A program made the position numbers and the translations under genes. DNA of 24,954 bases from the IMG/VR virus record IMGVR_UViG_2778261464_000013. One strand, 5' to 3'. Source of the stretch: a virus (Duplodnaviria > Heunggongvirae > Uroviricota > Caudoviricetes). Positions within the stretch are counted from its first letter, which is position 1. Each line of letters starts with the position of its first letter. The notes below the pieces were generated by a model. The model saw only the letters and a program-made list of their open reading frames with translations, was not told the origin of the DNA and ran no database searches. This document shows positions 3,363-23,818 of this stretch, piece after piece.

Positions 3363-3708
3363 TCTCTGCTCCTGTTGATACGGAAAGGGAAACAGGCACA
3401 CCGTTATTCCGCCGCCCGGTCAGCTCCACCACCATTGAACCGTCAAAATTGCTGTGGATGGTGATGGAATCCAGCGTCAGCCGTGGCTCCCAGCGACTCA
3501 GCGCCACATACACTGCCGACATGACCTGCAGGCGTAATGCCGGATTTTGTGGCTGGTCTATCAGTGCCGACAGCAGGGAACCATATTCACGACGGGCAAT
3601 GCGACTACCCTGTGGTGTCAGCAGAATGTCCCGCACCGACTGGCGCAGATGGTCAATATCAGTAATGGCTTTGCCGCTGGTATTGTTCATCCCGCTATAA
3701 AGCGTCAT
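3349..3708 (-). CDS. W: Baseplate wedge protein gpW (GPW/gp25 family)
   Basis: 119-aa ORF. ATG at 3708..3706 overlaps the TGA stop of V (ATGA coupling). Position between V and J. Confidence 0.8.
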   Translation of the reverse strand: MTLYSGMNNTSGKAITDIDHLRQSVRDILLTPQGSRIARREYGSLLSALIDQPQNPALRLQVMSAVYVALSRWEPRLTLDSITIHSNFDGSMVVELTGRRNNGVPVSLSVSTGAENGSD

Positions 3709-4283
3709 ACCGGGCCTCCAGTTGTATCGCCGCCTTTCAGGACGCCAGTATGCTGATGCGCATCAACCACGATCCCGTTAGAACTCATCGCTCCGCCGCC
3801 CTGGGTAATGCCACCATTGATCACCACTTCACTGTTAATGCGCGTGCGGTCAGCCTCCAGTACAAACTCACTGGTTTTCATGGTGATGTTGTCAGCGGCC
3901 TCAATGACCATTGATTTGATGCCCCTGACATACCAGCGCCCGGTGGCGGGTTCGTATTCAAACCAGCCACCGTCAGGATGTTCTATCACGCAGGCGTCCG
4001 CCGACGTCGACGGTGGCGCGAACTGATTCGAATAGATGGCGGGTAACGCAAAGGCGGTTTCCAGATTGCCGCCCAGACTCAGCAGCACCACCTGCTCACC
4101 TTCCGATGGTCGCCACCATGTGCGGGCATTACCCGCGCGCAGCGTCAGCCAGTTAATCCAGTTGGTTTCAAGGTCGCCCGTTTTCACCCGACAAAGCCAG
4201 TTTCCCCGGTCCACTTCGGTGACTACACCTATGCGGATCAGATTGGTGATAAGGCGCATGATTTCGGTTAGTTGTGCGTTCAT
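3705..4283 (-). CDS. V: Baseplate spike/assembly protein gpV
   Basis: ATG at 4283..4281 (MNAQLTEIMRLITNL...), 192 aa. The longer ORF in the track (to 4526) begins with TTG and runs into AT-rich moron DNA, so that extension is rejected. Confidence 0.8.
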   Translation of the reverse strand: MNAQLTEIMRLITNLIRIGVVTEVDRGNWLCRVKTGDLETNWINWLTLRAGNARTWWRPSEGEQVVLLSLGGNLETAFALPAIYSNQFAPPSTSADACVIEHPDGGWFEYEPATGRWYVRGIKSMVIEAADNITMKTSEFVLEADRTRINSEVVINGGITQGGGAMSSNGIVVDAHQHTGVLKGGDTTGGPV

Positions 4284-4322
4284 AGATATATGATGACAGC
4301 TGAAAACTTGTTTATAACTTCT

Positions 4323-4350
4323 TGCAAATTGTGGTATCGATGGTACAAAT
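4323..4350 (+). promoter_or_regulatory. Candidate sigma70 promoter for the S-V moron (TTGCAA-N16-TACAAA)
   Basis: -35-like ttgcaa at 4323..4328 and -10-like tacaaa at 4345..4350, about 37 nt upstream of the ATG at 4387. The match is weak and it overlaps the dyad above. Confidence 0.25.
4330..4347. promoter_or_regulatory. TGT-N12-ACA dyad (tgtggtatcgatggtaca), candidate late-promoter activator (Ogr/B-type) site upstream of V
   Basis: On the V strand it reads TGTACCATCGATACCACA and sits about 46 nt upstream of the V start codon. It closely resembles the dyad upstream of gene P (TGTACCGACAACCACACA) at the same spacing. Confidence 0.4.
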
Positions 4351-4386
4351 TGATAAAAGGATAAAAAACAACCAATAGGTGGATAA

Positions 4387-5193
4387 ATGAGTGTTATGAA
4401 TCCAATAAGTTCTAATATATTTAATGCTGAATTTTTAAACACCCCGGCAGCGGCACTTGCCGCATGGATTTCCATTATTGGAGCTGTTATAACTTTGGTG
4501 ACGATAGTTATAAGAGCACTATTCAAATATAGAAAATCTCATGATGTAATTTTGAAAAAATCAGGAATACCTGCGTTTATATTAAATTTTTTTCTTATAC
4601 GAATATCATTAAAAAGGCTGCCTACTATCACATGGGCTGAAAAATCAATCACGGTTCTCTTTTCACTTCTTTTTTTGTGTGCAATTTATATTTTTGGTCC
4701 AGTTTTCATCCAAGCCATTAGAACCCCACCAAATAGCACATTGCTTTATTGGATAAAGTCCGGTGAATCATTTTATATGTCAAAAAAACTGGCGACTGCA
4801 GCTACAATATTAACCACTCCTGATTGGGAAATATCAAAGGATGATTGCGAAGAGTCATCCTCTGCCAGTACAGAGAAGTACAAATCATTAACTATCGAAC
4901 ATAAAGAAATTCTTTGTAAACTACTAACCACTGATGAAGGGAATGCTTACATTGATGAAGAAGTCAAGAATTTCGTTAAAGACAAATTCTTTATCTATTC
5001 CTTTGCCCCAACAACCATATTTATTCTAATATGGATTTCTTTGGGTTTTATACTGACCATTCACTATTCTAAAAAAGTTAGGAAATATATTCTGACTGAA
5101 CAAAAAAATGCAATTCATTGGGCATATGGTGAATTCAAGACAGAAGGAATCTATTCAATATATCAAGAGTTAGAACGTAAGACTCACCATTAA
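4387..5193 (+). CDS. Hypothetical membrane protein (about 3 predicted TM helices), AT-rich moron at the S-V junction (orf30-like position), opposite strand to the late genes
   Basis: 268-aa ORF with AGGTGG Shine-Dalgarno 5 nt before the ATG. About 22% GC by hand count on the first 50 nt, against a GC-rich flank. Hydrophobic segments AALAAWISIIGAVITLVTIVI, ITVLFSLLFLCAIYIFGPVFI and TIFILIWISLGFILTI. Confidence 0.6.
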   Translation: MSVMNPISSNIFNAEFLNTPAAALAAWISIIGAVITLVTIVIRALFKYRKSHDVILKKSGIPAFILNFFLIRISLKRLPTITWAEKSITVLFSLLFLCAIYIFGPVFIQAIRTPPNSTLLYWIKSGESFYMSKKLATAATILTTPDWEISKDDCEESSSASTEKYKSLTIEHKEILCKLLTTDEGNAYIDEEVKNFVKDKFFIYSFAPTTIFILIWISLGFILTIHYSKKVRKYILTEQKNAIHWAYGEFKTEGIYSIYQELERKTHH

Positions 5194-5581
5194 GACCCAA
5201 CAAACGACGCTCTGCATAACGGACCTCAGGTCCTTTGCGACTGACGCGATCACGCAGGCCGTAGTGATGAACGCGGGCAATGCGCTGCACCTTGCCTTCA
5301 AACTGCACGCTGGCAGAGTCGGCGCTGGCGGCAGTTTTCAGGTATTTTGTGGTGCGCAGCTTCGCAAACATCTGACGTTTGATGCGCCCCTTTTTGCTGC
5401 GTGCTGTTACCCTGCGCGGCTCATAACTGCTGCCATCTGGATTGCGCTGCATCCTGATGTTCTGCTGCTGTGTCCGGCGCAGTTCCTGCGCCAGCTGGCG
5501 CATCATGCGGCTTCTTGCGGCTGGCTCCAGATTCGCCAATAATGCACTCAGCCAGTCGTCCACCTTCTGCAGTTCAGCCAC
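5135..5581 (-). CDS. S: Tail completion protein gpS
   Basis: 148-aa ORF with the VHHYG-type motif of the phage virion morphogenesis (S) family. Position downstream of R. Its 3' end overlaps the convergent moron ORF by 59 nt. Confidence 0.75.
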   Translation of the reverse strand: MAELQKVDDWLSALLANLEPAARSRMMRQLAQELRRTQQQNIRMQRNPDGSSYEPRRVTARSKKGRIKRQMFAKLRTTKYLKTAASADSASVQFEGKVQRIARVHHYGLRDRVSRKGPEVRYAERRLLGLNGESYVLTLDILNRFLLS

Positions 5582-10644: not shown

Positions 10645-10662
10645 TGTACCGACAACCACACA
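10645..10662 (+). promoter_or_regulatory. TGT-N12-ACA dyad (tgtaccgacaaccacaca), candidate late-promoter activator site for the P-Q operon
   Basis: Located in the O/P divergent intergenic region, 46 nt upstream of the P start codon. This is the geometry expected for Ogr/B-activated late promoters of P2-like phages. Confidence 0.45.
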
Positions 10663-10708
10663 AACCGCAGGCGGGGAAAGCCTTCATTCAAGGCTGTAGG
10701 TTTGTGCC

Positions 10709-12475
10709 ATGAACACCACACTGACACCCGCAGATCTCGATCCCCGTCGGCAGGCCATGCTGCTGTACTTTCAGGGATACCGCGTAGCCCGCATTGCTGA
10801 AATGCTGGGCGAGAAAGTTGCAACCGTTCACAGCTGGAAAAAACGCGACAAGTGGGGTGACTATGGGCCGCTGGATCAGATGCAGCTCACCACCGCCGCA
10901 CGCTACTGCCAGCTCATTATGAAGGAGCACAAAGAAGGGAAAGACTTTAAAGAAATTGACCTGCTGGCGCGCCAGTCTGAGCGCCACGCGCGGATCGGCA
11001 AGTTTAACAATGGCGGCAACGAAGCCGACTTAAACCCTAACGTCGCCAACCGCAACAAAGGCCCGCGCCGTCAACCGGAAAAGAATGTCTTCACCGATGA
11101 ACAGATTGAGAAGCTGGAAGAAATCTTCCATTCCTCCATGTTCAACTACCAGCGCCACTGGTGGGAAGCCGGAAAAACCAATCGCATCCGTAATCTGCTG
11201 AAGTCTCGCCAGATCGGCGCGACCTTTTACTTTGCCCGTGAAGCCCTGATTGACGCCCTACTGACCGGGCGTAACCAGATTTTCCTTTCCGCCAGCAAGG
11301 CTCAGGCCCACGTCTTTAAGCAGTACATCATCGACTTCGCCAAAGAAGTGGAGGTGGAGCTGAAAGGCGATCCGATGGTGCTTCCTAACGGGGCCACGCT
11401 TTACTTCCTCGGCACCAATGCCCGCACGGCCCAGAGTTACCACGGCAACCTGTATCTGGATGAATATTTCTGGATACCGAAATTCCAGGAGCTGCGCAAA
11501 GTGGCTTCCGGTATGGCTATTCACAAAAAATGGCGACAAACCTATTTTTCCACGCCATCCAGCCTGACACACAGTGCTTATCCGTTCTGGTCCGGTGCGC
11601 TGTTCAACCGTGGGCGCAACAAAGCCGATAAGGTGGACATCGACCTGTCCCACAACAATCTGGCCCCCGGCCTGCTGTGCGCAGACGGGCAATACCGCCA
11701 GATAGTCACCGTGGAAGATGCGGTGCGCGGCGGCTGTAACCTGTTCGACCTTGACCAGTTGCGCATGGAGTACAGCCCGGACGAATACCAGAACCTGCTG
11801 ATGTGCGAGTTCGTGGACGATCTCGCGTCCGTGTTCCCGCTCAGCGAGCTGCAGGCGTGCATGGTGGACAGCTGGGAAGTCTGGACCGACTTTCATGCAC
11901 TGGCCCTGCGCCCGTTTGGCTGGCGCGAAGTATGGATCGGCTATGACCCGGCAAAAGGCACGCAGAACGGCGACAGCGCCGGATGCGTGGTGGTGGCACC
12001 GCCAGCCGTACCGGGCGGCAAATTCCGCATTCTTGAGCGGCACCAGTGGCGCGGGATGGACTTCCGCGCCCAGGCTGACGCCATCAAAAAACTGACACAG
12101 CAGTACAACGTGACCTATATCGGCATTGACTCGACCGGCGTCGGTCACGGGGTTTACGAGAACGTGAAAGCGTTTTTTCCAGCCGTCCGGGAGTTTGTCT
12201 ACAACCCCAACGTTAAAAACGCCCTGGTACTCAAGGCCTACGACATTATCAGTCACCGTCGTCTGGAGTTTGACGCCGGACACACCGACATAGCGCAGTC
12301 ATTTATGGCAATCCGTCGCGCCACCACCGCCAGCGGCAACCGCCCAACCTATGAAGCCAGCCGCAGCGAAGAAGCCAGCCATGCCGATCTGGCCTGGGCA
12401 ACAATGCACGCACTGTTTAACGAACCGCTGCAGGGCGAGTCCGCCAATACCAGCAATATTGTGGAGATTTTTTGA
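10709..12475 (+). CDS. P: Terminase ATPase/large subunit gpP
   Basis: 588 aa. N-terminus and overall sequence are typical of P2 gpP. Followed by Q with a 4-nt overlap. Confidence 0.9.
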   Translation: MNTTLTPADLDPRRQAMLLYFQGYRVARIAEMLGEKVATVHSWKKRDKWGDYGPLDQMQLTTAARYCQLIMKEHKEGKDFKEIDLLARQSERHARIGKFNNGGNEADLNPNVANRNKGPRRQPEKNVFTDEQIEKLEEIFHSSMFNYQRHWWEAGKTNRIRNLLKSRQIGATFYFAREALIDALLTGRNQIFLSASKAQAHVFKQYIIDFAKEVEVELKGDPMVLPNGATLYFLGTNARTAQSYHGNLYLDEYFWIPKFQELRKVASGMAIHKKWRQTYFSTPSSLTHSAYPFWSGALFNRGRNKADKVDIDLSHNNLAPGLLCADGQYRQIVTVEDAVRGGCNLFDLDQLRMEYSPDEYQNLLMCEFVDDLASVFPLSELQACMVDSWEVWTDFHALALRPFGWREVWIGYDPAKGTQNGDSAGCVVVAPPAVPGGKFRILERHQWRGMDFRAQADAIKKLTQQYNVTYIGIDSTGVGHGVYENVKAFFPAVREFVYNPNVKNALVLKAYDIISHRRLEFDAGHTDIAQSFMAIRRATTASGNRPTYEASRSEEASHADLAWATMHALFNEPLQGESANTSNIVEIF

Positions 12476-13509
12476 TGGGAAAGAGTAAGAAAAACCGCGC
12501 TGCGGCGACGAATCAGATCCTGCATAAAAACCAAACTTCAGCCGAAGCATTCAGCTTCGGTGATCCCGTTCCTGTTCTGGACCGCCGCGAATTACTGGAC
12601 TATGTGGAATGCGTACAGATGGACCGCTGGTATGAGCCACCAGTGAGTTTCGACGGGCTGGCGCGAACCTTTCGCGCCGCCGTGCACCACAGCTCACCGA
12701 TTGCCGTAAAGTGCAACATACTGACCAGCACCTACATCCCTCATCCGCTGCTCAGCCAGCAGGCTTTTTCACGTTTTGTGCAGGACTATCTGGTATTTGG
12801 TAACGCCTACCTGGAGAAACGCACGAACCGCTTCGGTGAAGTGATCGCCCTTGAACCTGCCCTGGCGAAATACACCCGACGCGGGTTAGACCTGGATACC
12901 TACTGGTTTTTGCAATACGGTATGACAACCCAGCCGTATCAGTTCACGAAAGGCAGCATTTTTCATCTGATGGAACCGGATATTAATCAGGAGATCTACG
13001 GCCTGCCCGGCTATCTTTCTGCCATCCCATCCGCTTTGCTCAACGAGTCCGCCACGCTGTTCCGCCGGAAGTATTACATTAACGGTAGTCATGCTGGCTT
13101 CATCATGTACATGACCGATGCCGCGCAGAACCAGGAGGATGTGAACAACCTCCGCAATGCGATGAAAAGCGCCAAAGGCCCTGGCAACTTCCGAAATCTG
13201 TTTATGTACTCGCCTAACGGCAAAAAGGACGGACTTCAGATCATCCCGTTGTCAGAAGTCGCAGCGAAGGATGAGTTTTTGAATATCAAAAATGTTAGTC
13301 GCGATGACATGATGGCGGCACACCGCGTGCCGCCGCAGATGATGGGGATTATGCCAAATAATGTCGGGGGATTTGGGGATGTGGAAAAGGCTAGTAAGGT
13401 TTTTGTCAGGAATGAGTTAATTCCGCTACAACACAGAATATCTGAAATTAACTCATGGATTGGACTTAATGAAGAACTGGTTAAATTTACCTCATATGAA
13501 TTAGATTAG
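12472..13509 (+). CDS. Q: Portal protein gpQ
   Basis: 345 aa, P2 gpQ-like. The last roughly 130 nt are visibly AT-rich compared with the rest of the gene. Confidence 0.9.
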   Translation: MMGKSKKNRAAATNQILHKNQTSAEAFSFGDPVPVLDRRELLDYVECVQMDRWYEPPVSFDGLARTFRAAVHHSSPIAVKCNILTSTYIPHPLLSQQAFSRFVQDYLVFGNAYLEKRTNRFGEVIALEPALAKYTRRGLDLDTYWFLQYGMTTQPYQFTKGSIFHLMEPDINQEIYGLPGYLSAIPSALLNESATLFRRKYYINGSHAGFIMYMTDAAQNQEDVNNLRNAMKSAKGPGNFRNLFMYSPNGKKDGLQIIPLSEVAAKDEFLNIKNVSRDDMMAAHRVPPQMMGIMPNNVGGFGDVEKASKVFVRNELIPLQHRISEINSWIGLNEELVKFTSYELD

Positions 13510-13560: not shown

Positions 13561-14712
13561 TCAGCTTATTTGACCTAATAATTCTTCCGCATATTTTTTA
13601 TCACTATCCATCCGTTGCTGAACAGCATCCCTAAGATGCTCTTTCAACTTATCAGGATAATTTTTACATGCATCAATCAATTTTGTTCGTAAAAGCTTAG
13701 CACCATTTACAATGGTGGCATAAGCTAAAGCATCAGCTAACTCCTTAACTTTCACATCATCAGTAATGATAGAAGGGATTGAAAAAACGTAATATTTCGC
13801 AACATAATTTTGCGTATACCAACTATCATATAACAATCCAATTAAAGCATCACCAAGATCACCTCTTCTTTTAAATTTGCTACCAAATGTATTACCCCAT
13901 GTTCCTATAGCTCCTTTGGTCGCATCAGAATAGAAATCCAAATATCCTTTTTTGCACTCTTCGATGATTATATTTTCCATTCTAATTAAAACATCATCAG
14001 GAAGATTTCTCCATGCGCTCGGCTTAATTATTCTAAATACATTAGCAAACTCAACATTATTGCTAGCCTTGCGTAACTCATCACCTAGCAACCGCATTGC
14101 GGCTTTTTCTTCCTCTCCTGAAAAGCGTTGGTTTATTGCTTTGAATATAGAATCAATTTCCTTGGTTGGCCTTTCATTAAAGCGAGAAATTAAACTTTGG
14201 AAAAAATCTAGTAGTTTTTTTTCTGGAATTTGTGATATTAAAGCTTCTGCATAATCAGAATTATTTACAAAGTGAACCTCATAAATTCTTTCAAGAATTG
14301 CTGTGTAATCGAACTCAGCAACATCTCTTTTTAAATACTTAATAAAAGTATCCAACATGATCAATATTCTCATGCAGGAATCTTCTGTATCAGGGAAATT
14401 GTCATGTGTCCTTGGATTTCTTATACACTGATAGTAGCCTCTTAATAGTGCTTCAAATCCGCGCTGTTCGTCCTGCTCTGATACAGATTGAAGACTATTA
14501 ATTTGGATTCTAGGTGATTGTCCACCCAAAACAGTACCAACAAGCTGAGCCCCATCCCCTTCACATTGCCCTTTTTCACGCAGCAAAGTTGTTAGATATT
14601 TGGTTCCTGCAAGTATTGCATCCGAAAATTGGTTGTTTTCCAGCCTATTACCAATCGCTTCAACTAATTCCGCATCGAAATTATTTGTATTAAAGTTATT
14701 TTTTACAAACAT
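13561..14712 (-). CDS. Hypothetical cargo protein with an N-terminal HEPN-like R-x4-H motif (RNPRTH); candidate abortive-infection/defence protein
   Basis: 383 aa from ATG 14712..14710 (the track starts one codon earlier at a GTG). GGGGAG Shine-Dalgarno upstream. About 35% GC by hand count on the last 60 nt. The RNPRTH codons lie at 14421..14404. Confidence 0.55.
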   Translation of the reverse strand: MFVKNNFNTNNFDAELVEAIGNRLENNQFSDAILAGTKYLTTLLREKGQCEGDGAQLVGTVLGGQSPRIQINSLQSVSEQDEQRGFEALLRGYYQCIRNPRTHDNFPDTEDSCMRILIMLDTFIKYLKRDVAEFDYTAILERIYEVHFVNNSDYAEALISQIPEKKLLDFFQSLISRFNERPTKEIDSIFKAINQRFSGEEEKAAMRLLGDELRKASNNVEFANVFRIIKPSAWRNLPDDVLIRMENIIIEECKKGYLDFYSDATKGAIGTWGNTFGSKFKRRGDLGDALIGLLYDSWYTQNYVAKYYVFSIPSIITDDVKVKELADALAYATIVNGAKLLRTKLIDACKNYPDKLKEHLRDAVQQRMDSDKKYAEELLGQIS

Positions 14713-14794
14713 CACACTCCCCTTTTTTTGAAAGGGTATTGTATTGAACCTTGTTAAGATTTCTCAGATAAGTATCACACTATCTCGAGTTGCG

Positions 14795-14822
14795 CGCGCT
14801 CGTATCCCCGCCACGCCTGCCC
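14795..14822 (-). other. Candidate cos (cohesive end) region
   Basis: The minus strand reads GGCGTGGCGGGGATACGAGCGCGCGC. Its first 13 nt match the GC-rich cohesive-end sequence I recall for 186/P2 (GGCG[T/A]GGCGGGGAAAGCA...). It lies in the expected place, between the replication-side cargo and the portal gene. Recalled from memory and not verified. Confidence 0.3.
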
Positions 14823-14858
14823 GCTTTTTGTAGCGATTTTCATGCAGGTGCATGACAT

Positions 14859-14886
14859 AAGCAAAAGCCCACCAGAACTGGCGGGC
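14859..14886 (-). terminator. Rho-independent terminator downstream of the 260-aa membrane-protein gene
   Basis: On the minus strand: GCCCGCC-agttct-GGTGGGC (7-bp GC-rich stem with one G-U pair) followed by TTTTGCTT. It starts about 50 nt after the stop at 14935. Confidence 0.6.
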
Positions 14887-14934
14887 CTCAGCAAAAACGA
14901 TCCTCAAACGATCATGCATATTCATGCGGCATAG

Positions 14935-15717
14935 TCATGCAGTGACTTTGGTCTGGTCAGGCGTAGAAAAATCTTCGAAAGATTTATAAGTTTCAGTATC
15001 AAATATTGAAATACTCTCAACCTGATCCATTGGGATTACATGCCTAAAATGATTTAAGTTCAGTGGAGTTGAGTCTGCTGTAATATTTTTACTAAGGTAA
15101 AGTTCATAGTAACGATGCTGCTCATGGTATCTGAGCGTATCTTTATCACGATAACCACTGATGTATGGTATGAGAGCCAGATGCTGAGTTTCCTGATGCT
15201 CCATCCGAGGAGCAGCTACGTAACCAATGTAAACTTTTCTGGATTTTAGCGTAACAAAGATGAGCTTACCTTCATCTATAGCCTGAACTAACAGTGACTC
15301 AATTCCATCTTGAGCTGCCATCTCGCGATATGCAGATTGACGAATCTCTTCGTTTTCTATTGCTCTTCGCGCATTGTTACCTTGGTCATAAGCAATAAAC
15401 ACCGCAAGCAGCATAGACAACACAAAGAACAATGGGTAAGACATTATCTTTACGTCTGTGAGCCATGAATAAAAGTCCACATGTAACTTAGGCCAAAAAT
15501 AACCAAAAAAATTGATAACTGAGCTTATAACTAGCAAGGTAACGAATGTAACAGCCATCAGAGTAAACCCCTGAATAGCAAACTTACAACCATGCATAGC
15601 TACATAAAAATAGGAATTCCAACCATTACTTCTTGCTTGCCTGATGCGGGACTGGTAATGATTTTCGGTGTACCAGAACCCGCAAACCAGGACGACCATG
15701 ATAACTAAGGGTCCCAT
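14935..15717 (-). CDS. Hypothetical membrane protein: about 3 N-terminal TM helices and a soluble C-terminal domain of roughly 140 aa; candidate defence effector
   Basis: 260 aa. ATG at 15717..15715 sits 3 nt after the stop of the upstream 66-aa ORF, with AAGGA/GAGGA upstream. The flanking region is AT-rich by eye. Hydrophobic segments at roughly aa 3-15, 50-74 and 92-110. Confidence 0.55.
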   Translation of the reverse strand: MGPLVIMVVLVCGFWYTENHYQSRIRQARSNGWNSYFYVAMHGCKFAIQGFTLMAVTFVTLLVISSVINFFGYFWPKLHVDFYSWLTDVKIMSYPLFFVLSMLLAVFIAYDQGNNARRAIENEEIRQSAYREMAAQDGIESLLVQAIDEGKLIFVTLKSRKVYIGYVAAPRMEHQETQHLALIPYISGYRDKDTLRYHEQHRYYELYLSKNITADSTPLNLNHFRHVIPMDQVESISIFDTETYKSFEDFSTPDQTKVTA

Positions 15718-16140: not shown

Positions 16141-16374
16141 CTAATGTAACCAGCTGTCGTCTTCCCACACCTTCTGCATAATTTTCATCACTTGCTTCCT
16201 TTCTTCGTCCAGTTGCAGTCCGGTCAGTTCCACACCGTTAGAGCTACCTTTGCGGATACGAATTACCGTTTTGGGATACAGGGGGCGCAGATTGCGGTAA
16301 AGCTCGGATTCAAGGGCGTCCAGTGTAGACTGGCTAATCTTCTGCTCTTTATCGATCATTATTTCAATGCGCAT
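16141..16374 (-). CDS. DinI-family protein (DinI/Tum C-terminal domain-like)
   Basis: 77 aa from ATG 16374..16372 (MRIEIMIDK...LDALESEL...WEDDSW), which aligns well to E. coli DinI as I recall it. GAGGTGA Shine-Dalgarno. The track ORF extends upstream to 16446. Confidence 0.7.
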   Translation of the reverse strand: MRIEIMIDKEQKISQSTLDALESELYRNLRPLYPKTVIRIRKGSSNGVELTGLQLDEERKQVMKIMQKVWEDDSWLH

Positions 16375-16384
16375 AAAAGTCACC

Positions 16385-16573
16385 TCAGCTGATGACATCC
16401 ATTGAGCGGTTGTATTCGTGGGTTCTGATTTTTGCCATGAGTTCATCTGTTAGTTCAGAAACCCACTGCAAAGCCAGCCCCTTCTCTTCATCACTACACT
16501 CACTAGCCGCTACAAGCTTAAGAAAAAAATCAATGCGCTGGAGCTTCAAAGACTCCAAAAAATAGTCCTGCAT
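16385..16573 (-). CDS. Small hypothetical ORF (62 aa), first gene of the putative LexA-controlled operon; possible N-terminal part of a split Tum-like antirepressor
   Basis: Lies directly downstream of the LexA box. It overlaps the 5' extension of the DinI-like ORF in another reading frame. Confidence 0.35.
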   Translation of the reverse strand: MQDYFLESLKLQRIDFFLKLVAASECSDEEKGLALQWVSELTDELMAKIRTHEYNRSMDVIS

Positions 16574-16613
16574 CTTTCCTCCTATGACACCAAAGCAATA
16601 CTGTATACATAAC

Positions 16614-16633
16614 CACTGTTTATATTTACAGTA
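16614..16633 (-). promoter_or_regulatory. LexA (SOS) box caCTGTttatatttACAGta
   Basis: CTGT-N8-ACAG with an AT-rich spacer, against the consensus taCTGTatatatatACAGta. It lies about 40 nt upstream of the small ORF/DinI-like operon. An overlapping partial half-site (tactgtatacataaccac) is at 16599..16616. Confidence 0.7.
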
Positions 16634-16725
16634 TATAATAATCTTACTGATGTAAAACGTTTTTTTACGTTCATCAGCCTGATATGCCTAGTATTATTAA
16701 GAGCACGAATTGTTAACCCGCGTAA

Positions 16726-19140
16726 TTAATACAGGTTCCGCCACTTATCATCTTCCTTCAGACGCTGGTTCCGATAGAAGATACGCAGGCCTGCTCCTGA
16801 CGGAATACTGCCACCGCGAAGGAGTAAATCGACCTCTTTCTCGCTGCCATCAAATCCTCTGGACTTCAGTTCATAGACGAGCTGCTGTCGTTGATGGTCT
16901 GTAATTCGCTGTTTGTAGTCTCTACGCCGTTTCGGTTTCACCAGGCGTAACCTTACAGCCAGTTCCCGGCGCTCTTTTTTGTTCATACTGTGCAGAAAAT
17001 CGTGCAACTCCTTGTCATCCATGCGGGTAATATCCGTTCTGGTGTCCCCATCAGCTGATTTATCTTTCTCCTGTTGGTTCAAATTTTCAGCAAGGGGACA
17101 GTTATTGCCACGAGTCCAAGGGGCGCAAGCGCCCTGGTCGGCTGCCGCCTCCTGAACGTCAACGGCCTTACGAACCATTTTCCACTTCACTGCATGAGTG
17201 CAGATCTTGCCCTCTGCAATGGGTGACCAGATGCCATAAATACGAATGCCGTGATCGCCATAGGCGGTCGGCTCTTCGTTAATTTCATAAGCAGTTCTGA
17301 TGAGGTGATATTTGCGGGGAACCAGTACGCCACCCTGCTTCATGATGTAAGTGGCAAAACAACCAGCATCAGCAGCAGCCAGGATGGCATCAAGGCGCGG
17401 GTTATCCAGTACCGGCGCACCTGCTTTTTTGTCGCCCTGTTGCCTTGCCGCCTGACCAGCCAGCAATCGCAGTTCACGGTAAGCCTGACGCCCCGGAATA
17501 CCAAAGAAGCGGAATTGCTGAACACGATGCAGAGACGCCCAGGCATTAACGTATTCAGCGTTATCACGCAGGGATTTACCCGTTTCCTTGCTGATCTCGC
17601 CAGCCAGACCACGCCCGTCAATGTTCTTACTAATGTATTTCGCGATGTAGCTTGTCGGTGTTCCTTTGCGCGGGTTTATCAGCTCAGATTTAAAGCGTGG
17701 ACCAGTGTTATTACCCAGTTCCTCGCGGTCTTCACGGATGGCAAACTTACACAACAATGCAGTAATGGCACGGCGGTCTTTTTTGCGCATGAAACACAAC
17801 AGGTGCCAGTGAACCGTACCGTCATGATGCGGCTCAGCCACCCGCACGCCATACCAGCGCAACCCGGCTTTGTGCATCGCCTTACGAAATGCAGCAAACA
17901 TGCCGACCAGATAATCGCTGCTTTGTCTTACCGTCGCATTTGTCCAGGTTGGGTTTGGTCTGCCGTTATTGAGCGTGGAATGGAAACGTGACGGACAGGT
18001 GATGGTGTAGAAAACGGCGCAGTCACCGCGCATTTCCGCGATAAGCTCCAGACCTTTAACACAGGCCATCATCTCATTGCGGCGATGTGCAGGGTTGCTG
18101 CTGCTGGCGTTTACCACGTCTTCCATATCCAGCGTGTCGCCGTCTTCGTTCACCAGTTCATGAGAACGAAAAAACTCCAGCGACTTACGGCGCTGCTCAC
18201 GTTTATGCATCACGGCTTCATAGCTGACATAGGGAGATGCTTTTTTGCTGACCAGGCAGACAGCGCGCAACTGCTCTTCCCGCCATTCGCAACGCATATT
18301 CCATAATTTCCGGTACCACCAGTCGGCGCACAACATACGCGCCAGCGAACCCGGAATGAGTTCATAGGGCACGGGTTTACGGCGGTTTCTTTTCCGGCGG
18401 AGTTGCTCAAACGCAGGTGGGATGACATCCAGTCGCAGGGTTTCTGCTGCCACCCTTTCCCATGTCTTGCGGATTTCTTCTGGCTTAACGTCATCGGTGG
18501 CATACAAATCGCCACAAGCTGCATCAAGGCACATGCTCATATGCGCAGCTACCAGGGTGGACAGGCGTTTCACCTGATCCTGACTCATTTCAGGCAGGAT
18601 CAGCAGGCCGTCCAGCCCTTCATGGCTCGCCATAAAGCGAAAAGAAGTGGATAGCTGACTGTCGCGTACATGCTCCAGCCGTTCCAGACATGGCTTAATC
18701 GTCTCACGCAAATAGCGGGAATAAGCCTTTGGCCTGCCCAGGCTGCTGAAGTATTCAATACGTTGCATCAGCGGCTTGCTGATATGGGAAGGCTGGGCGT
18801 TGACGTCAGCCAGAATGACCATGTCTGGATTAAAACGCTGCTGCTCATGCGCCAGCTTTGCCCGGCTAATGAGCTTATCCTGCTCCATTTCGCGCTGGAC
18901 AGGATCACGGGATTCATTAAAGAAATAACGCTCCCAGACCTGCTCACTCAGTGCCTCGCGGCGCAGTTGTTCCTGCTCGTTATCGGCAGCATACAGAGTG
19001 ATCAGGTTTGAAAGTGCAGACTCCGGCGCAACTTCCGCCGGGTCCAGATAAGGGTTAATGGCCTTTTTCGGGCCGTTCCATGAAAATGATGCGGCGGCCT
19101 CGTTAAAGCCGCTAGAGTTGCTCATATCGTCATGACTCAT
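16726..19140 (-). CDS. A: Replication initiation protein gpA (rolling-circle replication initiator/nickase)
   Basis: 804-aa ORF, the largest early gene, immediately downstream of the Dam gene with an ATGA overlap. Position and size are consistent with the P2/186 A gene. Confidence 0.8.
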
Positions 19141-21883: not shown

Positions 21884-22828
21884 ATGTCAACTCAAAAATT
21901 CACATTTCGCCATATTGATGACGATATGAAAGCCGTTGTCATACAAAATCGCGGTGGTCAGAAAGTAATCGAGCGGATACTCATGGCTTATGGCTTCAAG
22001 TCACGCCAAGCATTCTGTAACCATCTAGGTATTTCCCAAAGCACGATGGCTAACAGATATGCCCGCGATACATTTCCTGCAGATTGGGTTGTTATCTGCT
22101 CAATGGAAACTGGAGCATCAATTAAATGGCTAGCATTTGGTTCAGATGATGACGAACAAATGCCATCCCCTTCACCAGAACAGCATGTTGAAACACACTC
22201 CGAAGATGGTTCTTATCATGACGTTCACTATAAACAACCAAAGTTCGATAATGAAAACACCATTGATTATTCTCGGGGTGGCAAGGAAGCAATAGAGCGA
22301 ATTGTTAGGGCTTACGGTTATAAGACTCGCCAAGCCTTAGCTGATCACTTAGGTATTTCAAAAAGCACATTAGCCACAAGATATATGCGTGATGTTTTTC
22401 CTTCAGACTGGATAATTAAGTGCGCTCTCGAAACGGGTACTTCACTAATGTGGCTAACTACTGGTAAAGGCCCAAAGTTTGACGATGCAAGAAATGATGT
22501 AATTGCTATTACTCACAAAAAAATTACTGACGGGAATCTATTTGATTCAAATTTCTATATGCTTGATAAAGCATTACTACCAGACTCAATCCAATTACCA
22601 TTGATTGTTAGCACCGAAAAAAAAACATACCTATGTAATCAATCATTCGATGAAATTACAGATGGTAAATGGATTGTTGAAATAGAAGGGAAAGTGAGCA
22701 TTCGAACCCTAACTAGAATTCCTGTAGGAAGATTAAAAATTTCAGACAATGATTTATCATTTGAATGTAAAATTTCAGATATTGATGTTATTGCAAAATG
22801 CAAATTTATTCTGATAGAAGAATTATAA
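21884..22828 (+). CDS. cI: CI-type immunity repressor with a tandemly duplicated N-terminal DNA-binding domain
   Basis: 314 aa. Residues about 24-86 and about 132-194 are about 60% identical to each other (...IERI..AYG.K.RQA...HLGIS.ST.A.RY.RD.FP.DW...C..ETG.S..WL..G). A C-terminal domain follows. Confidence 0.7.
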   Translation: MSTQKFTFRHIDDDMKAVVIQNRGGQKVIERILMAYGFKSRQAFCNHLGISQSTMANRYARDTFPADWVVICSMETGASIKWLAFGSDDDEQMPSPSPEQHVETHSEDGSYHDVHYKQPKFDNENTIDYSRGGKEAIERIVRAYGYKTRQALADHLGISKSTLATRYMRDVFPSDWIIKCALETGTSLMWLTTGKGPKFDDARNDVIAITHKKITDGNLFDSNFYMLDKALLPDSIQLPLIVSTEKKTYLCNQSFDEITDGKWIVEIEGKVSIRTLTRIPVGRLKISDNDLSFECKISDIDVIAKCKFILIEEL

Positions 22829-22942: not shown

Positions 22943-23818
22943 TTGAAAAACCTATTGGATTCTCTAGAGTTTGATGAATTCGATATACTGCTTGATGCTT
23001 ACAGTCGAAATTTTTCTAAAAAAAAATATATGTATGAGCCCTTCATGCCTGACCATACATCATTGCAAAACAGTGAAGCAGATAAGTACCTTTTAAAAAT
23101 TGATGAGTTAGAACATAAACTACGCGAGTTTCAAAAAAGCCATAATTCGCAGTTAGACCAATTCAACAAGTTGCAGATAGAGTTATTAACTGCAATGGAC
23201 AGTAAAGAAAAACTAGCATCACAGCTAAAACTCCAACACGCCCAAAACAAAGAGTTAAAGCTTCAAAACCAAAAACTTTCAAGCAAAATTCAACAAAATA
23301 AAATTGACGAAAAAGTTCCTGAATATGTGCAGGGTGTCAAAGCAAAATTACATCAGGACGATAAAGATTTCACTGCAATGTCTTACAATTGGGCGATAGC
23401 CGGAATACTTTTATCATTATTATCTATAAGTGCCGCCTTTTTAACATTTTTCTATAAAATAGATATAAAAGACGCCACCCCCATTGAACTTTTTTATTAT
23501 TTCACTAGGGGCTTGCTTGGGGTTGCATTACTTTCTTGGCTTTCTTATTTTTGTTTAAACAATTCAAAAAAATACACACATGAAGCAATCATAAGAAAAG
23601 ACAGACAACACGCTCTAATGTTTGGTGAGGTCTTCTTACAAATTTATGGTTCAACTGCGACAAAACAAGATGCTATTGATGTGTTTAAAGATTGGAACAT
23701 GTCAGCTAATTCTGCATTCGCAGATAAAACGCAGCCACCTCCAAATTTATTTAACATTCTAGGCACACTTGCAGATAAAAAATCAGCAGCAAATGATGAC
23801 ATTGTTACCCAAAAGTGA
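22943..23818 (+). CDS. Hypothetical coiled-coil membrane protein (2 predicted TM helices) between cI and int; candidate superinfection-exclusion/defence protein
   Basis: 291-aa ORF, about 28% GC by hand count on 50 nt. The track start is a TTG with no obvious Shine-Dalgarno; the first in-frame ATG is at 23030, so the true start is uncertain. N-terminal Q/K/L-rich heptad-like region, then hydrophobic segments AIAGILLSLLSISAAFLTFF and LLGVALLSWLSYFCL. Confidence 0.5.
   Translation: MKNLLDSLEFDEFDILLDAYSRNFSKKKYMYEPFMPDHTSLQNSEADKYLLKIDELEHKLREFQKSHNSQLDQFNKLQIELLTAMDSKEKLASQLKLQHAQNKELKLQNQKLSSKIQQNKIDEKVPEYVQGVKAKLHQDDKDFTAMSYNWAIAGILLSLLSISAAFLTFFYKIDIKDATPIELFYYFTRGLLGVALLSWLSYFCLNNSKKYTHEAIIRKDRQHALMFGEVFLQIYGSTATKQDAIDVFKDWNMSANSAFADKTQPPPNLFNILGTLADKKSAANDDIVTQK

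What the first reader, a model, noticed from the sequence alone, without database searches (positions are those of the whole stretch)
4284..5193. AT-rich moron at the S-V junction encoding a 3-TM protein on the opposite strand and overlapping the 3' end of gene S
Between tail genes S and V (the orf30 position of P2) lies a stretch that is strongly AT-rich by eye (about 22% GC on the first 50 nt of the gene) with a 268-aa membrane-protein gene on the strand opposite to the late operon. It has its own AGGTGG ribosome-binding site and a possible sigma70 promoter, so it could be expressed from the prophage. Its last 59 nt overlap the convergent S gene, which suggests the insertion junction lies inside the S 3' end. 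It is a lysogenic-conversion or defence candidate.
Basis: partly seen in the sequence, partly recalled or inferred. Interest (0 to 1): 0.5.

Follow-up and report, generated by a model that had tools for sequence, protein, structure and literature searches.

The report
Silent membrane-protein cargo gene in P2-like prophage
Between two tail genes of a P2-like prophage sits a foreign, AT-rich gene for a three-pass inner-membrane protein of unknown function (Pfam DUF6216), also present in E. coli BL21. It is kept under selection even where the rest of the prophage has decayed, which makes it a reasonable but unproven candidate for blocking entry of competing phages or plasmids.

Summary
A 268-codon ORF (4387-5193, +) lies in a 33% GC block between tail genes V (3705-4283, -) and S (5135-5581, -) and overlaps S by 59 nt. 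It has three strong hydrophobic segments. Shuffles of the block never gave an ORF above 148 codons.

The protein belongs to Pfam DUF6216, a tiny family of unknown function. The site is the already known variable "orf30" slot of P2-like phages. About 10% of related E. coli prophages carry this gene, including those of BL21(DE3) and REL606, where a 2026 preprint reports H-NS binding and derepression.

New here:
- The layout (opposite strand, start 24-40 nt beyond the P_V activator dyad, 3' end overlapping S) holds in all intact prophage loci, down to a 20%-identical relative.
- A conserved TTGCAA-16 nt-TGgTACAAA promoter candidate overlaps that dyad.
- The gene survives, with dN/dS 0.11-0.21, in prophage remnants where every tail gene is gone. 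A relative sits in a conjugative element.
- The same slot elsewhere holds ApeA-like, HEPN-motif and HNH-like genes.

No homology or fold match to any known defence, exclusion, holin or immunity protein was found. My best guess is an envelope-level exclusion or defence factor, and it is inferred only. Verdict: an ordinary kind of feature with a new member; moderate interest.

The parts
3705..4283 (-). Gene V (baseplate spike), first gene of the late V operon; left conserved anchor of the slot
   Evidence: Pfam Phage_base_V E=2.7e-17 and Apex E=6.7e-6. Homology with insert-free relatives runs up to the V start codon.
4284..5193 (.). AT-rich exchangeable module: a P_V promoter variant, the DUF6216 gene and the last 18 codons of S
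   Evidence: GC 0.327 against 0.56-0.585 for V and S. Absent from CP019275 and 60 of 78 related loci, and replaced by other single genes in 9 loci.
4330..4347 (.). TGT-N12-ACA dyad, inferred Ogr/Delta activator site of late promoter P_V (reads on both strands)
   Evidence: Its centre is 55.5 nt from the V ATG, as for the annotated P2 activator site. It is present at the same spacing in all V-bearing DUF6216 loci and in the insert-free and Cartapus relatives. Its function is inferred from P2.
4322..4349 (+). Candidate sigma-70 promoter of the DUF6216 gene: -35 TTGCAA (4322-4327), 16-nt spacer, extended -10 TGgTACAAA (4341-4349). It overlaps the right half of the dyad.
   Evidence: Both elements are invariant (TTG(C/A)AA and TGGTACAAAT) in 9 loci whose proteins are only 50-80% identical. 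These include V-less remnants in which the canonical dyad is lost. The generic scan did not call it. The transcription start site was not determined.
4377..4382 (+). Shine-Dalgarno AGGTGG, 4 nt before the ATG
   Evidence: Sequence. The aligned position is GGAGG in most homologues.
4387..5193 (+). DUF6216 family gene, 268 aa, predicted 3-TM inner-membrane protein
   Evidence: Pfam PF19723, 45.6 bits against a cut-off of 27.3. RefSeq names the BL21 allele 'DUF6216 family protein'. dN/dS is 0.11-0.21.
4450..4521 (+). TM1 (residues ~22-45)
   Evidence: Kyte-Doolittle peak 2.58; model helix 20-58.
4522..4647 (+). Predicted cytoplasmic loop (residues 46-87), basic, with the family motif KK(S/A)G.P.F.L..F.I.I.LK..P
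   Evidence: +9/-2 charge. It is among the most conserved stretches of the family, with dN/dS 0.11.
4648..4716 (+). TM2 (residues ~88-110)
   Evidence: Kyte-Doolittle peak 2.55; model helix 83-112.
4717..4986 (+). Predicted periplasmic alpha/beta domain (residues 111-200) holding the only family-wide conserved residues: F129, C154 and C177 invariant, W147 nearly invariant (>=90%)
4987..5061 (+). TM3 (residues ~201-225)
   Evidence: Kyte-Doolittle peak 2.11; part of model helix 183-247.
5062..5190 (+). Predicted cytoplasmic basic tail (residues 226-268); the last 19 codons are dual-coding with S
   Evidence: +8/-5 charge. dN/dS is 0.06 for residues 226-249. Synonymous divergence is halved in 250-268, as expected for an overlap.
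5135..5581 (-). Gene S (tail completion / virion morphogenesis); right conserved anchor. Codons 131-148 (5138-5191) are cargo-specific.
   Evidence: Pfam Phage_tail_S E=5.7e-40. S proteins are identical to residue ~130 and then diverge with the cargo. The S tail co-varies with the DUF6216 subtype.

Best explanation
What it is (well supported). The feature is a single-gene accessory cassette, a moron, in the known variable orf30 slot between tail genes S and V of a P2/186-like prophage.

How it is exchanged. It moves as a module bounded by the V start codon and S codon ~130. The module carries its own version of the P_V promoter region, the gene, and the last 18 codons of S encoded antisense to the gene's 3' end.

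The protein. It is a DUF6216 family member, an N-out, three-pass inner-membrane protein. It has a basic cytoplasmic loop, a ~90-residue periplasmic alpha/beta domain with a conserved cysteine pair (probably a disulfide), and a basic cytoplasmic tail. No catalytic motif is conserved, so it more likely acts by binding or by perturbing the membrane than as an enzyme.

How it is controlled (inferred, with partial support). Transcription runs divergently from P_V, from a weak extended -10 promoter whose -10 lies in the right half of the Ogr/Delta activator dyad. The promoter is therefore free in the lysogen. It would be occluded when the late activator binds, and late transcription reading out of S would run antisense through the gene. 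In the lysogen the AT-rich module is largely silenced by H-NS/StpA, as reported for the BL21 allele.

What it does (inferred, not shown). It benefits the host or the mobile element rather than virion production. The most likely mode is action at the inner membrane or periplasm to stop incoming foreign DNA. That would be superinfection or entry exclusion of competing phages and perhaps plasmids. Less likely is a membrane-acting abortive-infection effector.
For: Cargo nature.
- Low GC.
- Absent from close relatives.
- Present in 111 of 5,426 E. coli genomes, against 1,047 genomes with a similar V gene.
- PMC3091744 names the orf30 locus as one of three regions where P2-like phages carry acquired genes.

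Real gene under selection.
- ORF length is far beyond the shuffles.
- It passes the Pfam threshold.
- dN/dS is 0.11-0.21 at dS 0.25-0.8, including remnant-versus-remnant pairs. Every region has dN/dS below 0.35.

Benefit to the host or element rather than the virion.
- P2's gene in the same slot is annotated nonessential.
- The gene persists where tail genes are gone. It stands alone between ybjL and a TetR gene (L010, L012). It sits with only ogr, a V fragment and S (L008). It sits with CI, a GIY-YIG gene and an AAA ATPase gene (L007). It sits next to an IS element (L004).
- Of the 5 species-representative genomes that carry it, 4 have no intact tail module.
- A relative lies among the transfer genes of a conjugative element (L041).

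Slot association with defence. Other cargos at the same slot, all single opposite-strand genes with GC 0.30-0.34, include an ApeA-like protein (PADLOC E=1.4e-13), a 449-aa protein with an R-x4-H motif and an HNH-like protein.

Regulation.
- The V ATG, dyad and gene start are laid out the same way in all intact loci, including a 20%-identical relative and P2 orf30.
- TTG(C/A)AA and TGGTACAAAT are invariant even in V-less remnants, while the canonical dyad is lost in three of them.
- H-NS ChIP peak and derepression in delta-hns delta-stpA BL21-AI (bioRxiv 10.64898/2026.09.05.749240).

Topology. Hydropathy, the positive-inside rule and the AF2 model agree. The conserved residues (F, W and two C) all lie in the predicted periplasmic domain.
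Against: No phenotype is known.
- No member matches any PADLOC model at a meaningful level, any PHROG or any NCBIfam model.
- There is no relationship to the e14 exclusion protein YmfE/Kunado.
- In BL21-AI, the gain of defence against T5 and Gostya9 on H-NS/StpA loss disappeared when retron Eco1 was deleted. Derepressed DUF6216 therefore did not protect against those two phages.
- E. coli B, which carries the gene, is the classical permissive host of T1-T7 (my own knowledge). At native, silenced levels it gives no broad protection.
- The periplasmic domain shows purifying selection (dN/dS 0.15), not the diversifying selection an arms-race interface might show.
- The promoter is inferred from conservation only. 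The generic scan missed it, and no terminator was found.
- Sharing a slot with defence genes is association, not evidence of function.
Confidence: 0.45

Rival explanations
1. It is an orphan immunity or envelope-protection protein. This prophage-borne inner-membrane protein would protect the lysogen from a membrane-targeting toxin (pore-forming bacteriocin, contact-dependent or type VI effector) or from envelope stress. That is lysogenic conversion without any anti-phage role.
For: It is a small multi-pass inner-membrane protein with no catalytic motif. It is a single gene with no partner in every context seen. It is retained under purifying selection after prophage decay. No anti-phage effect was seen for T5 or Gostya9 in the derepressed BL21 background. 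Pore-forming colicin immunity proteins are 3-4-TM inner-membrane proteins (my own knowledge).
Against: No toxin gene lies beside it in any locus. No sequence or fold similarity to any immunity family was found. The slot's other identifiable cargos are nuclease or HEPN-type defence-like genes rather than immunity genes.
Confidence: 0.17
2. It is a membrane-acting abortive-infection effector. The protein would sense infection and collapse the membrane potential or lyse the cell early. H-NS silencing would limit its toxicity.
For: The slot is shared with ApeA-like and HEPN-motif genes, which are typical abortive-infection proteins. Silencing by H-NS resembles that of the neighbouring toxic Eco1 system. 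There is a weak, sub-threshold resemblance of TM1 to holins (Pfam Phage_holin_2_3 E=0.036; PHROG holin E=0.25).
Against: The slower growth of delta-hns delta-stpA BL21 was relieved by deleting Eco1, so derepressed DUF6216 is not overtly toxic. The holin hits are far below threshold (14.5 against 28.8 bits). There is no cytoplasmic sensor-like domain: the cytoplasmic parts are 42 and 43 residues. No PADLOC match.
Confidence: 0.15
3. It serves the phage's own lytic cycle, for example by tuning lysis timing, anchoring tail assembly at the membrane, or acting through antisense control of S, rather than serving the lysogen.
For: It lies inside the late region next to the lysis and tail genes. Its 3' end overlaps S and its start abuts P_V, so its transcription could interfere with both. 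The layout is conserved over deep divergence.
Against: About 90% of prophages with a similar V gene lack it, as do 60 of 78 close IMG/VR relatives. No deposited phage genome among 50,697 records encodes a relative detectable by tblastn. P2's counterpart is annotated nonessential. The coding sequence stays under purifying selection in remnants that have no S, V or lysis genes. That cannot be explained by a role in virion production or by antisense regulation.
Confidence: 0.08
4. It is a selfish or neutral passenger. The gene would persist because H-NS silencing makes it cost-free, not because it does anything useful.
For: It is silenced in BL21 and no phenotype is known. The family is very rare: 49 clusters at 50% identity among 1.84 billion proteins.
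Against: dN/dS is 0.11-0.21, with intact reading frames across 50-80% identical copies, including solitary remnants. The promoter-like elements and the ribosome-binding site are also conserved.
Confidence: 0.05

Closest known systems
Phage P2 orf30 (NP_046770.1), the nonessential gene between S and V
   Same: It occupies the same slot and the same opposite-strand orientation. Its start lies just beyond the P_V activator-binding site and its 3' end faces the end of S. Its size is similar (261 against 268 aa). Read from the sequence, it has the same layout: two N-terminal-half TM segments, a ~90-residue loop with two cysteines, then a third TM followed by Y-(S/T)-K. In the profile comparison the two cysteines and TM3 align.
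   Different: Homology could not be demonstrated. tblastn found no phage match, Orf30 has no Pfam hit, and hhalign gave 9% probability (pairwise E=0.0035) over 70 columns only. In P2 a terminator separates S from orf30 and the two genes do not overlap. The function of Orf30 is also unknown.
Pfam DUF6216 (PF19723)
   Same: The window protein passes the gathering threshold (45.6 against 27.3 bits). RefSeq names the near-identical BL21 protein WP_000115390.1 'DUF6216 family protein'.
   Different: The Pfam match covers only residues 72-237. The enterobacterial subgroup adds a conserved N-terminal peptide and a ~20-residue C-terminal extension that runs into S. The family has no assigned function.
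P22 SieA and e14 YmfE/Kunado (prophage inner-membrane superinfection-exclusion proteins)
   Same: Each is a single prophage-encoded inner-membrane protein expressed in the lysogen. SieA blocks DNA injection by related phages (bioRxiv 10.1101/2023.08.15.553423). Kunado is AT-rich, silenced by H-NS and blocks T5-like phages after adsorption. This is the functional model proposed here.
   Different: There is no sequence relationship to YmfE (hhalign probability 0.6%). SieA was not compared. No exclusion phenotype has been tested for DUF6216, and T5 and Gostya9 were not affected in derepressed BL21 lacking Eco1.
Known cargo hotspots of P2-like phages (old/tin region between gpA and portal; Z/fun; tail-to-CI)
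   Same: These are small loci between conserved core genes, with high turnover of AT-rich anti-phage genes (PMC9122126; 10.1101/2024.10.15.618418; PMC13586616). The S-V slot behaves the same way. At least 7 different cargos were seen here, one of them ApeA-like.
   Different: The passages of those studies that I read do not name the S-V slot as a hotspot. One study lumps everything downstream of gpL together. In the loci examined here the slot is usually empty (60 of 78) and holds one gene at most. Its cargo shares promoter space with P_V and supplies the C-terminus of S.

Membership tests
Pfam DUF6216 (PF19723) | Whole-protein score at or above the curated gathering score | tested here: met
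   45.6 bits, E=7.1e-12, cut-off 27.3. Distant relatives P0038, P0050 and P0061 also pass.
Pfam DUF6216 (PF19723) | Shared architecture and conserved residues across the family | tested here: met
   29 members down to 19% identity align end to end with the same three hydrophobic segments. F129, C154 and C177 are invariant and W147 is nearly invariant.
Moron (independently transcribed accessory gene in a phage genome) | Absent from otherwise closely related phages, at a defined junction | tested here: met
   CP019275 and others have a 68-bp S-V spacer. 60 of 78 related loci are empty.
Moron (independently transcribed accessory gene in a phage genome) | Base composition different from the surrounding genome | tested here: met
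   GC 0.33 against 0.56-0.585 for V and S. The gene stays at 29-39% GC in all but one of the 13 loci examined (L034: gene 0.43, flanks 0.39).
Moron (independently transcribed accessory gene in a phage genome) | Own promoter | tested here: inconclusive
   The generic scan found none on the + strand. A conserved TTGCAA-16-TGgTACAAA is invariant in 9 loci. Transcription of the BL21 allele in delta-hns delta-stpA is reported in a preprint. No transcription start site was mapped.
Moron (independently transcribed accessory gene in a phage genome) | Own terminator | tested here: not met
   No intrinsic-terminator-like site in 4100-5400 on either strand. The gene ends inside S.
Known anti-phage defence systems (PADLOC-DB 2.0.0) | Match to a model of a known or candidate defence protein | tested here: not met
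   0 families for the window protein at E<=10. Across 29 family members there were only two E~0.008 hits to PDC-M23A, one member each.
Superinfection-exclusion inner-membrane proteins (SieA / Kunado type) | Inner-membrane location | tested here: inconclusive
   Predicted only: three strong TM segments, positive-inside charge pattern and the AF2 model. No experiment.
Superinfection-exclusion inner-membrane proteins (SieA / Kunado type) | Sequence or fold relationship to a known member | tested here: not met
   YmfE/Kunado: hhalign probability 0.6%. No BFVD or PDB neighbour. SieA itself was not compared.
Superinfection-exclusion inner-membrane proteins (SieA / Kunado type) | Blocks infection after adsorption, at DNA entry | not testable with these tools
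   Needs plating, adsorption and DNA-entry assays. The only indirect data are negative: T5 and Gostya9 in BL21 delta-hns delta-stpA delta-Eco1.
P2 Orf30 family | Same genomic position, strand and relation to P_V | tested here: met
P2 Orf30 family | Detectable sequence homology | tested here: not met
   tblastn of the window protein against 50,697 phage records found nothing. Profile-profile probability is 9%.
Holins (Pfam Phage_holin_2_3) | Score at or above the gathering threshold | tested here: not met
   14.5 bits against 28.8, over TM1 only. The prophage region also has other lysis-gene ORFs.
H-NS-silenced xenogeneic genes | AT-rich and bound or repressed by H-NS | tested here: inconclusive
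   AT-richness was shown here. H-NS ChIP peak and derepression are reported only for the 99.6%-identical BL21-AI allele, in a preprint, not for this strain.

The most novel reading that the evidence does not exclude
DUF6216 proteins, possibly together with a very diverged P2 Orf30, could be a new family of single-protein inner-membrane exclusion factors carried by P2-like phages and conjugative elements. The gene would be wired into the phage late switch: its promoter sits inside the Ogr/Delta activator site of P_V, so it is on (subject to H-NS) in the lysogen and off in lytic growth. A silent copy sits in BL21(DE3) and REL606. More broadly, the S-V junction would be an under-recognised fourth defence slot of P2-like phages, in which each cargo also supplies the C-terminus of tail protein S.
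Probability: 0.3. Interest if true: 0.6.

Novelty: new member of a known kind. Interest (0 to 1): 0.4.

Why it matters
The kind of feature is ordinary. P2-like phages are known to carry acquired genes at the orf30 slot, and the gene already has a Pfam and RefSeq family name.

It matters in three modest ways:
- The most widely used expression and evolution strains (BL21(DE3), C41/C43, REL606) carry a near-identical, H-NS-silenced membrane-protein gene whose function nobody has tested.
- The gene's survival as the last remnant of decayed prophages, under purifying selection, together with a relative in a conjugative element, marks it as a good candidate for a new envelope-level anti-phage or anti-plasmid factor that current defence catalogues miss.
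- The slot shows a tidy design: the cargo promoter overlaps the late activator site, and the cargo's 3' end encodes the tail of S. This could explain how cargos are swapped by recombination without damaging the late operons, and how they are switched off on induction.

Tried and rejected
Searches that found nothing useful:
- PADLOC, PHROGs and NCBIfam scans of the protein and of 29 family members gave nothing meaningful.
- A tblastn search of 50,697 deposited phage genomes found no match.
- A PDB sequence search with the family profile found no match.
- Foldseek against viral structures gave nothing at E <= 0.001.
- The AlphaFold database library was not available.
- An Rfam scan of the window found nothing, so a known RNA element in the block is not supported.
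- The generic promoter/terminator scan found no + strand promoter and no terminator. I replaced it with a phylogenetic comparison.
- The preprint's supplementary tables, wanted for fold-change values, are not held.
- A literature search for the RefSeq accession gave no paper.

Comparisons that failed:
- Comparison with e14 YmfE/Kunado showed no relationship.
- Homology to P2 Orf30 was tested with single-sequence and family profiles. Probabilities were 1.8% and 9%, so it was not accepted, although the layouts are alike.
- A genome-collection scan with the broad alignment failed for lack of conserved peptides. The scan with the close subgroup found only 5 species representatives.

Ideas rejected:
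- Holin or lysis role: sub-threshold hits, and the gene is absent from most relatives.
- Transposon-type insertion: the module boundaries coincide with the V start and S codon ~130. The family occupies the same slot in prophages whose V proteins are only 67% identical. This points to exchange by recombination in the flanking genes.
- Recent acquisition as the reason for the low GC: the gene stays at 29-39% GC across copies that are 20-50% identical.
Full report
**1. The observation**

The window carries the late region of a P2/186-like prophage on the - strand. Gene V (3705-4283; Phage_base_V and Apex domains) and gene S (5135-5581; Phage_tail_S) flank a block of low GC. The block holds one long ORF, 4387-5193 on the + strand, 268 codons.

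- GC is 0.33 for the ORF and 0.22 for its first 50 nt, against 0.56 for V and 0.585 for the non-overlapping part of S.
- The 40-nt profile falls at about 4260-4280 and recovers at about 5190-5200.
- In 2,000 shuffles of 4284-5193 the longest ORF averaged 48.5 +/- 15 codons and never exceeded 148.
- The last 59 nt of the ORF (5135-5193) overlap the 3' end of S.
- AGGTGG sits 4 nt before the ATG.
- Three hydrophobic segments are strong. The charge distribution fits an N-out topology with residues 111-200 in the periplasm. The AlphaFold2 model (mean pLDDT 73.7) has matching long helices.

One refinement is needed: the first ~65 nt of the interval belong to the late promoter P_V (section 4).

**2. 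What the gene is**

The protein passes the Pfam threshold for DUF6216 (45.6 bits against 27.3). It has no meaningful match in PADLOC, PHROGs or NCBIfam.

The DNA is 99.6-99.9% identical to a gene in 111 of 5,426 complete E. coli genomes. In all 30 records listed, the match is annotated as lying next to the S gene. These include BL21(DE3), C41/C43, REL606 and other B strains, where RefSeq calls it 'DUF6216 family protein'.

The family is very small:
- A profile search of 1.84 billion cluster representatives found 49.
- A pattern scan of one genome per species (185,579 species) found close relatives in five, all Enterobacteriaceae.
- No deposited phage genome among 50,697 records encodes a relative detectable by tblastn.

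An alignment of 29 members down to 19% identity keeps the three hydrophobic segments. F129, C154 and C177 are invariant and W147 is nearly invariant; all four lie in the predicted periplasmic domain. No pattern typical of an enzyme is conserved.

**3. It is cargo in a known variable slot**

Close relatives of this prophage, such as CP019275 and many Klebsiella and E. coli phages, have only a 68-bp spacer between S and V. Phage Cartapus has a different 176-aa gene there. P2 itself has the nonessential orf30 on the opposite strand. PMC3091744 already lists orf30 as one of three loci where P2-like phages carry horizontally acquired genes.

I looked at 78 IMG/VR prophages with a closely related S:

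| S-V slot content | Loci |
|---|---|
| Empty | 60 |
| DUF6216 | 9 |
| Other cargo (five types) | 9 |

Every one of the other cargos is a single gene on the opposite strand with GC 0.30-0.34. They are:
- an ApeA-like protein (PADLOC E=1.4e-13);
- a 449-aa protein with an R-x4-H motif;
- an HNH-like protein;
- two other membrane proteins.

In E. coli genomes, a V gene like this one occurs in 1,047 genomes, DUF6216 in 111 and P2 orf30 in 464.

**4. Anatomy of the module**

On the V side, similarity to the empty relatives stops at the V start codon. A TGT-N12-ACA dyad (4330-4347) is nevertheless kept in all three phage types. Its centre is 55.5 nt from the V ATG, the same distance as between the annotated P_V activator-binding site and V in P2. 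The pattern alone is not rare (6 found, 6.5 expected). The argument rests on its position and its conservation.

On the S side, S proteins are identical up to residue ~130 and then differ according to the cargo. The DUF6216 stop codon falls on S codons 130-131. The exchanged unit therefore runs from the V start codon to S codon ~130. It carries its own P_V variant and its own S tail.

The same layout recurs in every intact locus examined: V ATG, 46 nt, dyad, 24-40 nt, gene start, and a 33-59-nt overlap with S. This includes a prophage whose DUF6216 protein is only 20% identical and whose V is 67% identical. This pattern, and the absence of any sign of a transposon, points to exchange by recombination within V and S. 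It also points to a long association of the family with this slot.

**5. A promoter candidate**

The generic scan found no sigma-70 promoter upstream on the + strand. I then aligned the 126 nt upstream of nine DUF6216 genes whose proteins are 50-80% identical to the window's. Mean column identity is 81%, with invariant TTG(C/A)AA (4322-4327) and TGGTACAAAT (4341-4350). These read as a -35 element, a 16-nt spacer and an extended -10, with a start expected near 4356.

The two elements are kept in loci where V has been lost. In three of those loci (L007, L008, L010) the canonical N12 dyad is no longer present. This argues that the conservation serves the DUF6216 gene, not only P_V.

Because the -10 lies in the right half of the dyad, binding of the late activator should compete with this promoter. 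No terminator separates S from the gene, so late transcription should also run antisense through it. Both points are inferences.

P2 orf30 starts only ~19 nt beyond its dyad, so it must share promoter space in the same way.

**6. Evidence on expression**

A 2026 preprint (bioRxiv 10.64898/2026.09.05.749240) reports three H-NS ChIP-seq peaks in the BL21-AI P2-like prophage: on the retron Eco1 reverse transcriptase gene, on its effector gene and on the DUF6216 gene. It also reports increased RNA from these regions in a delta-hns delta-stpA strain.

The same paper reports that the gain of defence against T5 and Gostya9 vanished when Eco1 was deleted. Derepressed DUF6216 therefore does not protect against those two phages. 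The slow growth of the double mutant was also relieved by deleting Eco1, which argues against strong toxicity of DUF6216.

**7. Evidence that the protein is useful to the host or element**

Pairwise dN/dS is 0.11-0.21 at synonymous distances of 0.25-0.8. Every region of the protein is below 0.35. The cytoplasmic loop (0.11) and the juxtamembrane tail (0.06) are the most constrained. Synonymous change is halved where the gene overlaps S.

The gene outlives its prophage. In different genomes it is found:
- with only ogr, a V fragment and S (L008);
- with a CI repressor, a GIY-YIG gene and an AAA ATPase gene (L007);
- next to an IS element (L004);
- entirely alone between ybjL and a TetR gene (L010, and the 32%-identical L012).

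ybjL is the gene next to which the BL21 prophage sits. Of the five species representatives, one has an intact prophage, one has S and R fragments and three have no tail genes nearby. A 26%-identical relative lies among the transfer genes of a conjugative element (L041). Another lies beside a Fic-domain gene near rpoD (L038).

The gene stays at 29-39% GC in almost all of these settings, so the low GC is maintained rather than a sign of recent arrival.

**8. What it might do**

Nothing links the protein to a known mechanism.
- The viral structure library gave nothing.
- The family profile finds no solved structure.
- The e14 exclusion protein YmfE/Kunado is unrelated.

Several facts point to a host- or element-beneficial function at the envelope:
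- It is a single gene.
- It is borne by two kinds of mobile element.
- It sits in a slot that also holds defence-like genes.
- It is predicted to be expressible in the lysogen, since its promoter is independent of the late operon, although it is reported silenced by H-NS in BL21.
- It is retained after prophage decay.
- It has no catalytic motif, and the family-wide conserved residues are periplasmic.

I consider exclusion of incoming DNA at the inner membrane the most likely mode. P22 SieA and Kunado are the working analogies. This is an inference with no direct test.

The rivals are an orphan immunity or envelope-protection role, a membrane-acting abortive-infection effector, a role in the phage's own lytic cycle, and a neutral passenger. 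The last two fit the data poorly. The gene is absent from most relatives, yet it is conserved in remnants that have no phage functions left.

**9. Relation to P2 orf30**

P2 Orf30 has the same position, strand, size and apparent layout. In the profile comparison its two cysteines and third TM segment align with those of DUF6216. The probability is only 9%, and Orf30 has no Pfam match. I therefore treat it as the closest analogue and not as a demonstrated homologue.

**10. Verdict**

The feature is a new, uncharacterised member of a known kind: an accessory gene in a known P2 hotspot. The added points of interest are:
- the conserved promoter-sharing and S-tail-supplying design of the slot;
- the persistence of the gene in decayed prophages;
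- its presence, silenced, in standard laboratory B strains.

Interest is moderate (0.4).

Noticed in passing
window 13561-15717 (- strand), AT-rich block about 13.2-16.8 kb between portal (12472-13509) and DinI/gpA (16141-19140): The classical old/tin-type hotspot of this prophage holds two genes. One is a 384-aa protein with a Hypoth_Ymh domain (Pfam E=2.9e-23) that also matches PADLOC PD-Lambda-3_B (E=2.4e-14) and Aga_HEPN (E=2.1e-9). The other is a 260-aa protein with no match at all. In BL21 the same slot holds retron Eco1.
   Followed up: partly
window 22943-23818 (+): A 291-aa ORF in a very AT-rich stretch (GC 0.28-0.35) lies between the CI repressor (21884-22828) and the integrase (23899 onward). 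It has only weak, sub-threshold coiled-coil-type Pfam hits and no PADLOC hit. It is another possible cargo gene.
   Followed up: partly
L056 4508-6259 (-); L054 4465-5811 (-); L065 4495-5307 (-); L051 4466-5224 (-); L052 4447-5130 (-): Related prophages carry alternative single-gene cargos at the same S-V slot, all on the opposite strand with GC 0.30-0.34. They are a 584-aa ApeA-like protein (PADLOC E=1.4e-13), a 449-aa protein with an RNIIIH motif, a 271-aa HNH-like protein, a 253-aa membrane protein and a 228-aa two-TM protein.
   Followed up: partly
L041 4914-5648 (+): A DUF6216 relative (P0045, 26% identical) sits among the transfer genes of a conjugative element, between TraG-D_C/DtrJ-like genes and the RAQPRD, DUF3262, DUF2976 and TraC_F_IV genes. 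The family is therefore not confined to phages.
   Followed up: no
L010 6001-6792; L012 8001-8741; L007 6001-6804: At the ybjL locus, which is where the BL21 prophage sits, some Enterobacteriaceae keep a DUF6216 gene with no tail genes nearby. In L010 it is the only gene between ybjL and a TetR/MFS pair. In L012 three small unannotated genes lie between ybjL and the DUF6216 gene. In L007 it sits beside a GIY-YIG gene, a CI repressor and an AAA_15/AAA_21 ATPase gene.
   Followed up: partly
L007, L008, L010 upstream regions (alignment A8 columns ~60-80): In three loci where V is lost or truncated, the canonical TGT-N12-ACA dyad is no longer present (TAT or AGT at the left half, or N10 spacing). 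The right half, TGGTACAAAT, and the upstream TTG(C/A)AA stay invariant.
   Followed up: yes
window 10645-10662, 10703-10720 and 11086-11103: Three more TGT-N12-ACA sites were found. I did not map them to genes, and the pattern count in the window is no higher than chance.
   Followed up: no
NZ_CP148585.1 (55,571 bp) and NZ_CP148400.1 (55,211 bp), match at about 3.3-4.4 kb: Two of the 111 E. coli matches lie on ~55-kb records counted as plasmid rather than chromosome. A P2-like element carrying the gene may exist extrachromosomally, or may have been assembled separately, in those strains.
   Followed up: no
L036 940-1725 (P2 orf30): P2 Orf30 has no Pfam family, and only five 90%-identity clusters of relatives were found among 5.8 billion proteins. 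Yet it occurs in 464 of 5,426 E. coli genomes. It is as uncharacterised as DUF6216.
   Followed up: partly
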